This document shows positions 6,969 to 8,073 of a stretch of DNA of 8,073 bases, one piece after another; position 1 is the first letter of the stretch, and each line of letters begins with the position of its first letter. The DNA comes from a virus (lineage: Duplodnaviria; Heunggongvirae; Uroviricota; Caudoviricetes), in IMG/VR virus record IMGVR_UViG_3300015185_000027; one strand, written 5' to 3'. The notes under the pieces were generated by a model. The model saw only the letters and a list, made by a program, of their open reading frames with translations, had not been told where the DNA came from and did not search any database. Both the position numbers and the translations under genes were made by a program.

Positions 6969-7295
6969 TCATAACACCGTCGGACAACGCAAATCGTAAA
7001 TCAGCACGGAAACAGAAAACGGCAGCTCCCCCTGAAGCAGTTCTTCCCGCTCCGCAAGATCCGGATTCCGGTACAGCATCCCGGTCAGTCGCATGGCAGC
7101 CCCCTTCATCCGGGTTAATGCCTCGCCCGGGATCAGTTCACCGTCCTCACGGATCACTTTATCCCGGCTGCCCTGAATGTAGGCCAGCAGCACGGCGGTA
7201 GCCTGACAAACCTTGTCCATCAGCATGTCATCATCCGCGTCATGGTCGACACGCAGATGTGCCTTGATCTCTTCCAGTGTCAGTAATGCCGTCAT
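6969..7295 (-). CDS. gp6-like head-tail connector protein, 108 aa
   Basis: N-terminus MTALLTLEEIKAHLRVDHDADDDMLMDK... is the characteristic start of the HK97 gp6-like connector family as I recall it. ATG 7295..7293 preceded by AGGAGG and overlapping the upstream stop (ATGA). Confidence 0.75.
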   Translation of the reverse strand: MTALLTLEEIKAHLRVDHDADDDMLMDKVCQATAVLLAYIQGSRDKVIREDGELIPGEALTRMKGAAMRLTGMLYRNPDLAEREELLQGELPFSVSVLIYDLRCPTVL

Positions 7296-8073
7296 TTTCC
7301 GCCTCCTGCATCCCGCCCACGTTTTGCAGCCAGGGTCCAGGCTGATGAATGAGCTTCTCCGGGTTTATCTTCGGTCATACTGTTGCAGTGCCACAGCGAG
7401 CCCCCCCACGTCACCGTATCGCCGGGGTGGTAGGTTTCACCGGCTCTGAACACACCGCGGTAGAGCATCACCGGCAGGGAAAATGTTTTTTCCGTACGCT
7501 GGCCACTGCTCTGCCGGACCACCACAGAGAACAACCGCTCACCCGTCATGCTGACGTCAATATCCGCCACCCCGTCAACCAGGCATTCCCATCCCCGCAT
7601 CCCGTGCGTTTTTTCATACGCCCGCCAGAGTCCGCCCTGGTGTGTGGCATACGTGCCCCGGGGAAAGGATTTTTGATCGTCAATGGCGGGGAGTATTTCC
7701 AGAGCCGTGGCATCACGCCCGTCCTGCGGAGCCGGCAGGGCACTCACCGCATCCAGAACCGCCTTCTGCAGAACATCCGGATCGTAGTCACGACCATCAC
7801 GCGGAACATGAATATGGCTTACCGCCTCCTTCACCATCTGTTCAAGCATCGGACGCACATCATCCGGGGTGAGACTTTTACCGTCTGCCGGCTGCGGAAT
7901 ATTTGCGACCGCATCATTCACCGCCTTCTGCAGAACATCGGGATCATAGTCACGACCGTCGCGCGGAACAGGGATATGGCTTACAGCCTCCTTCACAATC
8001 TGTTCAAGAATCGGACGTACAACCTCTGGGGTGAGACTATTACCGTCCGCCGGCTGCGGAATATTTGCGACAC
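7292..8073 (-). CDS. 5'-truncated gene for a repeat-containing structural protein of unknown function (candidate capsid decoration or carbohydrate-binding protein); the frame is open to the window edge
   Basis: The minus-strand frame has no stop from 8071 down to the TGA at 7292..7294. The GTG the ORF track shows as M at 7996 is an internal Val codon (...LEQIVKEAVSHI...). Contains at least 2.9 copies of a 54-aa repeat and a C-terminal ~110-aa W/G/Y-rich domain (..YHPGDTVTWGGSLWHCNSMTEDKPGEAHSSAWTL) that resembles CBM5/12 (chitin-binding type 3) motifs. Confidence 0.7.
   Translation of the reverse strand, partial: VANIPQPADGNSLTPEVVRPILEQIVKEAVSHIPVPRDGRDYDPDVLQKAVNDAVANIPQPADGKSLTPDDVRPMLEQMVKEAVSHIHVPRDGRDYDPDVLQKAVLDAVSALPAPQDGRDATALEILPAIDDQKSFPRGTYATHQGGLWRAYEKTHGMRGWECLVDGVADIDVSMTGERLFSVVVRQSSGQRTEKTFSLPVMLYRGVFRAGETYHPGDTVTWGGSLWHCNSMTEDKPGEAHSSAWTLAAKRGRDAGGGK
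7759..8073 (-). repeat. In-frame tandem repeat, 162-bp unit (54 aa), about 1.9 copies visible plus a degenerate third copy downstream; the array continues past the window edge
   Basis: Copy 7759..7920 and copy 7921..8073 align at a constant offset of 162 with roughly 85-90% identity, differing by scattered substitutions (for example, ggctt at 7816 and 7978, gctgcggaat at 7891 and 8053). Encoded unit is roughly VANIPQPADGKSLTPDDVRPMLEQMVKEAVSHIHVPRDGRDYDPDVLQKAVLDA. Confidence 0.85.

What the first reader, a model, noticed from the sequence alone, without database searches (positions are those of the whole stretch)
7292..8073. Repeat-containing protein with a carbohydrate-binding-like C-terminus, sitting where the major capsid gene is expected
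In HK97-type head modules the gene directly upstream of the gp6-like connector gene is normally the major capsid protein. Here that slot holds a gene whose visible 260 aa are about 2.9 copies of a 54-aa Asp/Pro-rich repeat (PRDGRDYDPDV, PQPADGKSLTPDDV) followed by a Trp/Gly-rich domain resembling CBM5/12-type carbohydrate-binding modules. It could be a capsid decoration or cement protein, a C-terminal extension of a capsid protein, or a surface glycan-binding module. The in-frame 162-bp repeat could also vary in copy number by slippage or recombination. I cannot place it in a family from memory.
Basis: partly seen in the sequence, partly recalled or inferred. Interest (0 to 1): 0.65.

Follow-up and report, generated by a model that had tools for sequence, protein, structure and literature searches.

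The report
Portal gene fused to fibre-like lectin protein
The flagged stretch is not a capsid gene: it is the tail end of an E. coli prophage "portal" gene that a single extra G has fused to a neighbouring, uncharacterised gene for a fibre-like protein with a variable-length repeat stalk and a chitin-binding-type tip.

Summary
Window 7292-8073 (minus strand) is the 3' end of an ORF that runs off the window. It has two full 54-aa repeats plus a 13-aa start of a third (not 2.9), then a confidently folded beta domain whose best structural matches are CBM5/12 chitin-binding domains and phage fibre tips.

The "capsid slot" premise is wrong. In complete relatives the order is terL, protease::capsid fusion, portal, this gene, gp6-like connector.

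In most relatives this gene ("X", PHROG 1289) stands alone at 190-550 aa, directly after and overlapping the portal gene. This includes Klebsiella, Pseudomonas phage PAJU2, phage BP-4795 and many metagenomic phages. In the common E. coli allele (E2348/69, phages 2851 and YYZ-2008) a G5-to-G6 change fuses portal and X into an 861-aa "portal protein".

X has an N-terminal coiled coil, a stalk and the lectin-like tip. The stalk holds 1-7 copies of the 54-aa unit in E. coli and true collagen G-X-Y runs in about half of relatives.

My best reading is a low-copy trimeric accessory fibre at the portal vertex. Whether it sits outside or inside the capsid is unresolved, and that is the interesting question. 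Databases mislabel standalone X as "portal" or "connector" and flag the split form as a frameshifted pseudogene.

The parts
7292..8073 (-). 3' part (259 codons plus stop) of the ORF. In the closest complete relatives this ORF is an 861-codon portal::X fusion. The portal domain and the fusion junction lie beyond the window edge.
   Evidence: ORF and translation. 99.1% nucleotide matches in E. coli genomes annotated 'phage portal protein'. Full gene in E2348/69, L001:10195-12780. PHROG 2271 (E = 4.7e-170) and PHROG 1289 (E = 1.2e-141).
7746..8071 (-). Tandem array of two complete 162-bp (54-aa) units. Each unit is two helix + (I/L)PxPxDG sub-units. This is the presumed stalk or spacer.
   Evidence: TRF period 162, score 523. 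The repeat finder copies at 7746-7907 and 7908-8069, 88% identity. 47/54 aa identical. AF2 predicts alternating 17- and 13-residue helices with low-confidence Pro/Asp/Gly linkers.
7709..7747 (-). Truncated third repeat unit (VSALPAPQDGRDA) that leads into the C-terminal domain.
   Evidence: Register of the translated repeats. The DGRDA motif is nearly invariant in the family.
7295..7723 (-). C-terminal beta-rich domain of 143 aa, the family-defining module.
7577..7657 (-). First CBM5/12-like hairpin motif (GTYATHQGGLWRAYEKTHGMRGWECLV).
   Evidence: Nearly invariant G-G-x-W and G-W residues in alignment A2. Beta strands in the models.
7325..7459 (-). Second CBM5/12-like motif (Y..GD.V.WGGSLW......P......W).
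   Evidence: Pfam CBM_5_12 hit at residues 209-231. Invariant D, P, W, G columns. PDB sequence hit to All3316 over the same stretch.
7292..7295 (-). ATGA stop/start overlap between X and the gp6-like connector gene.
   Evidence: Sequence. ORF list. Connector identity.

Best explanation
The region encodes the distal two-thirds of 'X', a fibre-like minor structural protein of a widespread HK97-type head module. The module order is terL, S78-protease::capsid fusion, portal, X, gp6-like connector.

X has three parts:
- an N-terminal amphipathic coiled-coil helix of about 45-50 aa;
- a length-variable stalk. Here this is 54-aa helix/Pro-Asp units. In about half of relatives it is a true collagen G-X-Y run, which implies a trimer;
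- a conserved 140-aa C-terminal beta domain containing two CBM5/12-like units, the same kind of module that sits on tail-fibre tips of other phages.

In most phages X is a separate gene whose start overlaps the portal stop (ATGA). In the predominant E. coli allele one extra G in a G-run, about 20 nt before the X start codon, puts the portal frame into the X frame. All 12 portal subunits would then carry X on their flexible C-terminal tail.

I infer that X is a low-copy accessory fibre anchored at the portal vertex. Its tip would bind a glycan, and its reach would be set by repeat number through recombination or slippage between the 162-bp units.

Shown here: gene identity, the fusion mechanism, domain architecture, fold similarity, copy-number variation and synteny. 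Inferred: trimeric state, virion incorporation, location, and ligand binding.
For: Identity and fusion:
- The full-length E2348/69 homologue has Phage_portal at residues 54-382 (7.6e-81) and TIGR01537 (3.5e-104), followed by the repeats and C-domain.
- Standalone X directly follows the portal in Klebsiella, E. coli, PAJU2, BP-4795, JLK-2012 and PPompW, and three metagenomic phages.
- Alignment A1 shows a single extra G (G6 versus G5) as the only frame change. The internal Met of the fused protein aligns with the X start codon.
- A second, independent portal::X fusion exists: P0261, 1237 aa, with a different junction and about 25 repeats.

Fibre architecture:
- 70 of 144 diverse relatives have at least 5 consecutive G-X-Y triplets, up to 49.
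- Repeat copy number is 1-7 in E. coli and steps by 54 aa in Klebsiella.
- AF2 gives a long N-terminal helix at residues 3-50 and a beta domain with pLDDT 97-98.

Lectin-like tip:
- Foldseek hits are phage 7-7-1 tail fibres, the Vibrio tandem CBM12 domains, the Milano receptor-binding complex and the A-1(L) tail fibre.
- The predicted viral protein structure database (BFVD) returns collagen-repeat and ChiC_BD phage proteins.
- Pfam CBM_5_12 scores 27.3 bits in relative P0283, above the gathering score.

Other support:
- One phage has an extra collagen-PKD-LamG gene in the same slot.
- X evolves under purifying selection, dN/dS 0.07-0.27.
- X is intact as often in fused loci as in split loci: 24/30 versus 46/54, p = 0.55.
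Against: - No direct evidence that X is in the virion. I found no proteomics or cryo-EM for any phage carrying it.
- In all solved portals the C-terminus faces the capsid interior (established knowledge). A covalently fused X should therefore be inside, which does not fit an external glycan-binding fibre unless the fused allele is a tolerated loss of function or the linker threads out.
- The C-terminal domain is the most conserved part across very different hosts. That is the opposite of typical receptor-binding tips and could mean it binds a conserved phage partner or a universal ligand.
- The CBM5/12 sequence score is below threshold in the window itself, and the usual aromatic pair is W-H here.
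- The repeat stalk is modelled with low confidence as a monomer.
Confidence: 0.55

Rival explanations
1. X is an internal, portal-crown-associated head protein. Twelve chains (four trimers) would be held on the inner face of the portal, non-covalently in split phages and covalently in fused ones. It would act as an internal core or DNA-organising appendage. Alternatively, after release (possibly by the S78 prohead protease cutting the flexible linker), it could be an ejected pilot protein whose CBM5/12-like tip binds peptidoglycan, a chitin-like glycan common to all hosts.
For: - Only portal C-terminus::X fusions are seen, at least twice independently. No X::connector fusion ranked above the standalone X proteins in the 120 hits listed (of 1370) for a chimeric X-plus-connector query, where a fusion should have scored highest.
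- The fused allele is in 747 of the complete E. coli records, against 55 for the matching split junction. It also occurs in records deposited as phage genomes (2851, YYZ-2008).
- X is not more often disrupted when fused, and dN/dS stays low among fused alleles.
- Start/stop overlap with the portal gene suggests portal-like stoichiometry.
- Conservation of the C-domain across hosts fits a universal ligand or a phage partner.
- Precedent from established knowledge: SPP1 gp7 / Mu gpF are encoded right after the portal and bound to it inside the head, and P22 has a C-terminal portal barrel.
Against: - Collagen-like rods of up to 49 triplets, lectin-type tips and a neighbouring PKD/LamG fibre gene are hallmarks of external adhesins. 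No internal head protein of this architecture is known.
- The structural neighbours are tail-fibre tips.
- There is no sequence similarity to MuF/gp7.
- The dN/dS evidence is confounded by recombination. Fused alleles differ by about 2% in junction flanks but by dS up to 0.2 in X.
Confidence: 0.27
2. In this window's lineage the fusion is simply a tolerated frameshift. X is a dispensable accessory fibre (compare the stf frameshift in lambda PaPa). The G6 allele inactivates or mislocalises it, and its abundance reflects clonal spread of host lineages and prophage recombination rather than function.
For: - The fused state is derived and young. The median flank distance among fused alleles is 10 per 470 nt, against 40 among split alleles.
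- All distant relatives are split.
- 15-20% of loci in both states carry disrupted X.
- The fusion needs only one nucleotide in a homopolymer.
Against: - X is not more often disrupted in fused than in split loci.
- A second independent fusion keeps about 25 intact repeats.
- The fused allele dominates in complete E. coli genomes.
Confidence: 0.12
3. One reading: a capsid decoration or cement protein, or a C-terminal extension of the major capsid protein.
For: - The gene lies in the head module next to head-completion genes.
- Trimeric decoration proteins exist in other phages (established knowledge).
- PAJU2 has a GAGG Shine-Dalgarno 7 nt before its X start, so expression need not be low everywhere.
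Against: - The capsid protein is a separate upstream gene, PF04586 + PF05065.
- The polypeptide continues into a portal domain, not a capsid domain.
- There are no hits to decoration families in Pfam, PHROGs or NCBIfam.
- In E. coli and Klebsiella there is no Shine-Dalgarno, and the ATGA overlap with the low-abundance portal gene argues against the roughly 420 copies per T=7 shell that a decoration protein needs.
- Fusion to the portal fixes the copy number at 12.
Confidence: 0.05

Closest known systems
Phage fibre proteins with collagen-like or coiled-coil stalks and CBM5/12-type distal domains (Agrobacterium phage 7-7-1 tail fibres 9RKV, phage Milano receptor-binding complex 8FQC, cyanophage A-1(L) tail fibre 8KEC, Pa193 gp47)
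   Same: The tripartite plan is the same: N-terminal helix, repetitive stalk, small beta-rich lectin-like tip. They are the structural neighbours of the C-domain. Relatives of X carry collagen runs.
   Different: X is encoded in the head module between the portal and the head-tail connector, not in the tail or baseplate module. Its tip is the most conserved rather than the most variable part. It can be fused to the portal.
CBM family 5/12 chitin-binding domains (Serratia ChiB, S. griseus ChiC ChBD 2D49, Erwinia EGZ CBD 1AIW, Vibrio chitin deacetylase tandem CBM12)
T4 fibritin (wac) and lactococcal-phage neck passage structure (collar/whisker fibres at the head-tail junction)
   Same: These are accessory, dispensable trimeric fibres with an N-terminal anchor and a repetitive stalk. 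They are encoded next to neck or head-completion genes, and some carry carbohydrate-binding modules (established knowledge).
   Different: There is no sequence or fold match to fibritin or neck-passage proteins. Attachment of X at the neck is not shown. Those fibres are never fused to the portal.
SPP1 gp7 / Mu gpF (PF04233) and the P22 portal C-terminal barrel (portal-associated internal structures)
   Same: The gene immediately follows the portal, or the structure is a C-terminal extension of it. Stoichiometry is tied to the portal. Occasional fusion to the portal occurs (established knowledge).
   Different: There is no homology. X is a Pro-broken repeat plus beta domain, not a continuous helix or MuF fold. 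Its collagen-like relatives are unlike any known internal head protein.
All3316 of the Anabaena contractile injection system baseplate (7B5H chain AE)
   Different: It is a 154-aa baseplate component of a non-phage injection system. The match covers one CBM-like unit only and is statistically weak.

Membership tests
HK97-family phage portal protein (Pfam PF04860, NCBIfam TIGR01537) | Portal domain (clip/stem/wing/crown) detectable in the polypeptide | tested here: not met
   The 259 aa encoded in the window have no portal-domain match. The portal domain of the fused protein is at residues 54-382 of the 861-aa homologue, outside the window. Standalone X proteins annotated 'phage portal protein' also lack it.
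HK97-family phage portal protein (Pfam PF04860, NCBIfam TIGR01537) | The window's ORF is continuous with a portal domain upstream (the fused allele) | tested here: inconclusive
   The window ends about 490 codons short of the junction. The best nucleotide matches (99.1%) are fused alleles, but near-identical split alleles exist.
PHROG 1289 / PHROG 16748 (the X family, labelled 'portal protein' or unknown) | Full-length profile match | tested here: met
   PHROG 1289 E = 1.2e-141 and PHROG 16748 E = 1.5e-97 for the window fragment. Diverse standalone relatives hit the same profiles.
Carbohydrate-binding module family 5/12 (PF02839) | Sequence score at or above the Pfam gathering threshold (26.2 bits) | tested here: not met
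   Window 22.5 bits, P0099 22.6, P0040 26.0. Only relative P0283 passes, at 27.3.
Carbohydrate-binding module family 5/12 (PF02839) | Small antiparallel beta fold superposable on solved CBM5/12 domains | tested here: met
Carbohydrate-binding module family 5/12 (PF02839) | Surface aromatic residues that stack on the glycan, and demonstrable chitin/cellulose binding | not testable with these tools
   Trp and Tyr residues are invariant (W135, W147, Y200, W213, W231 in A2), but the usual adjacent aromatic pair reads W-H. Binding needs an experiment.
Collagen triple-helix repeat proteins (PF01391) | Runs of G-X-Y triplets | tested here: not met
   There are none in the window or in E. coli, Klebsiella or Pseudomonas X. 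They are present in 70 of 144 diverse family members, up to 49 triplets, so the stalk is interchangeable.
HK97-fold major capsid protein (PF05065) or an extension of it | Capsid domain in the same ORF, or the gene occupying the capsid position | tested here: not met
   The capsid is a separate Peptidase_S78 + Phage_capsid gene upstream of the portal in every complete locus.
Capsid decoration / cement proteins | Match to a known decoration family; high copy number per shell | tested here: not met
   No decoration-family hit in Pfam, PHROGs or NCBIfam. Copy number was not measured, but ATGA coupling to the portal gene and 12-per-virion stoichiometry when fused argue against it.
SPP1 gp7 / Mu gpF minor head proteins (PF04233) | MuF domain; gene directly downstream of the portal | tested here: not met
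   The position is met. No MuF domain appears in any of 12 proteins scanned.
P22-type portal barrel | Continuous alpha-helical C-terminal extension of the crown | tested here: not met
   A low-complexity linker of about 45 aa (visible in the sequence itself) is followed by helices interrupted every 13-17 residues by Pro/Asp/Gly linkers (pLDDT < 57), ending in a beta domain.
Programmed ribosomal frameshift product (portal to portal::X) | Conserved slippery site and conserved frame relation at the junction | tested here: not met
   The frame relation differs between lineages: -1 with an ATGA overlap in E. coli, Klebsiella, PAJU2 and L024, and +1 with 8-14 nt overlaps in L009 and L022. The A-run and G-run are not conserved. 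Frameshifting at the E. coli G-run cannot be excluded experimentally.
QatB (PF28083) anti-phage defence protein | Profile match | tested here: not met
   The only hits are precomputed; the one instance where hit strength is reported is graded 'faint'. No QatB hit in PADLOC.

The most novel reading that the evidence does not exclude
The fused allele builds virions in which all twelve portal subunits carry a 45-kDa fibre inside the capsid (four trimers tethered to the crown). X would then be normally an internal, portal-bound fibre in split phages too. That would be a previously unrecognised kind of internal head structure in siphophages. It could serve as a DNA-organising core or as an ejected pilot fibre whose CBM5/12-like tip binds peptidoglycan during genome delivery.
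Probability: 0.25. Interest if true: 0.8.

Novelty: new variant of a known kind. Interest (0 to 1): 0.5.

Why it matters
1. Annotation. A family with thousands of members (5486 clusters at 50% identity) is named "portal protein" or "gp6-like connector" only because of the E. coli fusion. RefSeq flags the ancestral two-gene arrangement as a frameshifted pseudogene. This affects more than 1000 complete E. coli genomes, including the long-tailed Stx1/Stx2c-converting phages.

2. Biology. A conserved, lectin-tipped, length-variable fibre sits in the head module of these phages, and its function is unknown. If external, it is a candidate adhesin for host or mucosal glycans that could influence Stx phage spread. 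If internal, it is a new type of portal appendage.

3. Engineering. Natural portals carrying 45-90 kDa C-terminal cargo show what a portal can tolerate.

4. Testability. The naturally occurring split and fused pairs (BP-4795 versus 2851), nearly identical otherwise, make the inside/outside question directly testable.

Tried and rejected
- Capsid, scaffold or decoration identity: rejected by synteny and domain searches.
- X::connector fusions as evidence for an external neck location: a chimeric X-C-domain plus connector query found only standalone X in its best 120 of 1370 hits; a fusion should have scored highest. The NCBI name "gp6-like head-tail connector" has no HMM basis.
- QatB defence-protein link (precomputed PF28083 hits): not reproduced in PADLOC.
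- Programmed frameshifting: there is no conserved slippery site or frame relation.
- dN/dS as proof that X works when fused: values are low (0.07-0.27). They are confounded by recombination, because junction flanks of fused alleles differ by about 2% while X differs by dS up to 0.2.
- G-run as a fast switch: three G5 loci have flanks identical to fused alleles. They come from draft assemblies, so homopolymer sequencing error cannot be excluded.
- Literature: five targeted searches (PAJU2, BP-4795, 2851, collagen-like or neck fibres, virion proteomics) and three papers read found nothing on this protein.
- PDB sequence search of the C-domain: only a weak hit to All3316.
- afdb50 fold library: unavailable.
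- AF2 of the repeat stalk as a monomer gave low confidence. Multimer prediction was not possible with these tools.
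Full report
**What is in the window.** All genes are on the minus strand and form the head-to-tail part of a lambdoid E. coli prophage. By Pfam they are:
- minor tail L (28-726) and M (726-1067);
- tape measure protein (1060-4302);
- tail chaperones T (4350-4631) and G (4655-5077);
- tail tube protein with a C-terminal Ig domain (about 5044-5763);
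- gp17-like tail completion protein (5825-6169);
- HK97 gp10-like protein (6166-6612);
- head completion protein (6609-6959);
- gp6-like connector (6969-7295).

The flagged ORF ends at 7292-7294, overlaps the connector start by ATGA, and is open to the window edge.

**The observation.** The 162-bp repeat is real. TRF scores it 523, and the two copies at 7746-7907 and 7908-8069 are 88% identical. Only two full 54-aa units and the first 13 residues of a third are visible, so the count is about 2.2 copies rather than 2.9. The C-terminal 143 aa give a sub-threshold CBM_5_12 hit of 22.5 bits against 26.2.

**What gene it is.** The stretch matches 1245 of 5426 complete E. coli genomes, with the best matches at 99.1% identity. 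It is annotated there as "phage portal protein". In E2348/69 the complete ORF has 861 codons:
- an HK97-family portal domain at residues 54-382 (PF04860 7.6e-81; TIGR01537 3.5e-104);
- a low-complexity tail;
- a helical segment;
- 3.3 tandem 162-bp units by TRF;
- the C-terminal domain.

The gene order is terS, terL, a 645-aa Peptidase_S78::Phage_capsid fusion, a small ORF, portal, connector. The capsid gene therefore lies upstream of the portal.

**The "extension" is a separate gene in most relatives.** A gene I call X follows the portal gene, usually with an ATGA stop/start overlap, and precedes the connector. It is found in:
- Pseudomonas phage PAJU2;
- Klebsiella prophages;
- other E. coli prophages;
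- phages BP-4795, JLK-2012, PPompW and Stx2_EH2246;
- three unrelated metagenomic phages.

Standalone X starts MNERELSxIxALGEEF. The fused E. coli protein keeps this as an internal ...EKMTERELSIIRALGEEF. Aligning the junctions shows that the fused allele has six Gs where the split allele has five, about 20 nt before the X start codon. That single base puts the portal frame into the X frame.

**How common each state is.**
- In complete E. coli genomes the fused junction is present at >=99% identity in 747 records, and the tested split junction in 55.
- In IMG/VR, exact-match scans found 41 fused and 76 split loci.
- Fused alleles are a tight group. Their median flank distance is 10 differences per 470 nt, against 40 among split alleles. 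All distant relatives are split. The fusion is therefore derived and fairly recent.
- A second, independent fusion exists in another phage lineage: P0261, 1237 aa, with a different junction and about 25 repeat units.

**Anatomy of X.**
- The C-terminal domain defines a very large family. There are 5486 representatives of 50%-identity clusters at E<=1e-3. Among the best 150 hits listed, nearly all are 190-550 aa, with the domain at or within about 50 residues of the C-terminus.
- All members begin with an amphipathic helix. AF2 models it as one helix over residues 3-50. I read a continuous heptad pattern in the sequence.
- The middle is interchangeable. E. coli, Klebsiella and Pseudomonas have helix + (I/L)PxPxDG units. 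70 of 144 diverse members have at least 5 consecutive G-X-Y triplets, up to 49. Collagen triple helices are obligate trimers (established knowledge), so I infer that X is trimeric.
- Repeat number varies from 1 to 7 in E. coli, giving X lengths of 245, 299, 353, 407, 461, 515 and 569 aa. In Klebsiella it steps by 54 aa.
- As a monomer the repeats are modelled as alternating 17- and 13-residue helices joined by low-confidence linkers (pLDDT 36-57). The block is strongly acidic, with pI 4.4.

**The tip.** The beta domain is modelled at pLDDT 97-98.
- Foldseek's best PDB hits are the tail fibres of Agrobacterium phage 7-7-1, the tandem CBM12 domains of Vibrio chitin deacetylase, the phage Milano receptor-binding complex and a cyanophage tail fibre.
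- The predicted viral protein structure database (BFVD) returns collagen-repeat and ChiC_BD phage proteins.
- One relative passes the Pfam CBM_5_12 threshold at 27.3 bits, but the window does not.
- The fold resemblance is therefore supported. Family membership by sequence is borderline, and sugar binding is untested.

**Function.** The architecture is an N-terminal coiled coil, a length-variable collagen or helical stalk, and a small lectin-like tip. Every characterised phage protein I know with this architecture is a fibre. One phage carries an additional collagen-PKD-LamG gene in the same slot. X is under purifying selection, with dN/dS of 0.1-0.25 between lineages.

In E. coli and Klebsiella, X has no Shine-Dalgarno and overlaps the stop of the portal gene. 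This suggests low, portal-like abundance and argues against a roughly 420-copy decoration role.

My best reading (confidence 0.55) is a low-copy accessory fibre anchored at the portal vertex. Its reach would be tuned by repeat number and its tip would bind a glycan.

**The unresolved point.** In all solved portals the C-terminus lies inside the capsid (established knowledge). A covalently fused X should therefore be internal.
- X is intact as often in fused as in split loci: 24/30 versus 46/54, p = 0.55.
- dN/dS among fused alleles stays at 0.07-0.27, although recombination between prophages confounds this.
- Fusions are seen only at the portal end. A chimeric query found no X::connector fusion.
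- The C-domain is conserved across very different hosts, unlike typical receptor-binding tips.

These points keep two rivals alive. One is an internal, crown-tethered role, either as a core or as an ejected peptidoglycan-binding pilot (0.27). The other is a tolerated loss-of-function frameshift in a dispensable fibre gene (0.12).

**What is known.** I found no paper, proteome or structure dealing with this protein. Databases label it by transfer from the fusion:
- PHROG 1289 is called "portal protein".
- NCBI names standalone X "phage portal protein" or "gp6-like head-tail connector protein" with no supporting HMM.
- RefSeq marks a split allele as a "frameshifted" portal pseudogene.

**Verdict.** The feature is a new variant of a known kind: a phage fibre module that sits in the head module and is naturally fused to the portal. 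Interest is moderate. The sequences are common and annotated. However, the family is large and uncharacterised, the annotation is misleading, and the inside-or-outside question can be tested directly with existing phage pairs.

Noticed in passing
L028 (E. coli MS10711, locus 196-2780); P0040 and many Klebsiella, Pantoea and Raoultella proteins: RefSeq annotates the ancestral split arrangement as a 'frameshifted' portal pseudogene. Standalone X proteins with no portal or connector domain are named 'phage portal protein' or 'phage gp6-like head-tail connector protein'. PHROG 1289 carries the same transferred label.
   Followed up: yes
Outside the window; L001:11530-11560 and equivalents: The fusion site is a G5/G6 homopolymer. 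Three G5 loci (L114, L141, L142) have 470-nt flanks identical to fused alleles. This suggests recent reversion or homopolymer sequencing error. In the G6 allele a +1 slip would restore the normal portal ending ...FRGILRK*. I derived that from the sequence and did not test it.
   Followed up: partly
L023:2498-3892: One metagenomic phage has a second fibre-like gene between portal and X. It has collagen G-X-Y runs from its N-terminus, then PKD and Laminin_G_3 domains. The called start (2642) is probably wrong: an ATG at 2498 with an upstream AAGGGG extends the collagen frame.
   Followed up: partly
L001:8046-9983 and equivalents (upstream of the window): The major capsid protein of this module is a single roughly 645-aa Peptidase_S78::Phage_capsid fusion placed before the portal gene. 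This gene order is unusual for HK97-like heads. It is conserved from E. coli to Pseudomonas PAJU2 and metagenomic phages.
   Followed up: partly
L001:10028-10249 and equivalents: A conserved small ORF (73 aa, no family hit on record) overlaps the start of the portal gene in the E. coli loci. Small ORFs occupy the same position in PAJU2, L020 and L022.
   Followed up: no
window 7908-8071: The most upstream visible repeat unit is the divergent one: DGNSLTPEVVRPILEQIV instead of DGKSLTPDDVRPMLEQMV, 88% nucleotide identity to the next unit. No complete E. coli genome matches the window better than 99.1%.
   Followed up: no
window 5044-5895: The listed ORF for the tail tube protein has a GTG-start N-terminal extension of about 45 aa that overlaps the 3' end of the gp17-like gene (5825-6169). 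Relatives call a 238-aa protein starting at MSALYERS. It carries a C-terminal Ig-like domain (Ig_3, I-set), another surface-display module in this virion.
   Followed up: partly
window 4350-5077: The tail assembly chaperone pair G (Phage_TAC_1) and T (Phage_tail_T) are adjacent, the usual substrate for a lambda-type -1 frameshift. I did not look for the slippery site.
   Followed up: no
P0001, P0003 and other E. coli fragments; L008/L009 X gene: Precomputed Pfam tables list PF28083 (QatB, an anti-phage defence component) on the repeat region (graded 'faint' where hit strength is given). PADLOC QatB models do not hit, and the local Pfam scan listed no PF28083 hit.
   Followed up: yes
PDB 7b5h chain AE versus window 7379-7474: All3316, a baseplate component of the Anabaena contractile injection system, shares the GxWxxGxxYxxGDxVxxxxSLW motif (E = 0.04) and the fold of one CBM-like unit. 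The module is therefore also used as a structural element outside phage fibres.
   Followed up: partly
L012 (Escherichia phage vB_EcoS_phi330): This deposited phage genome has the G6 junction but further frame breaks in portal and X. The region is annotated as three ORFs, and X is truncated after the repeats. These may be real lesions or sequencing errors.
   Followed up: no
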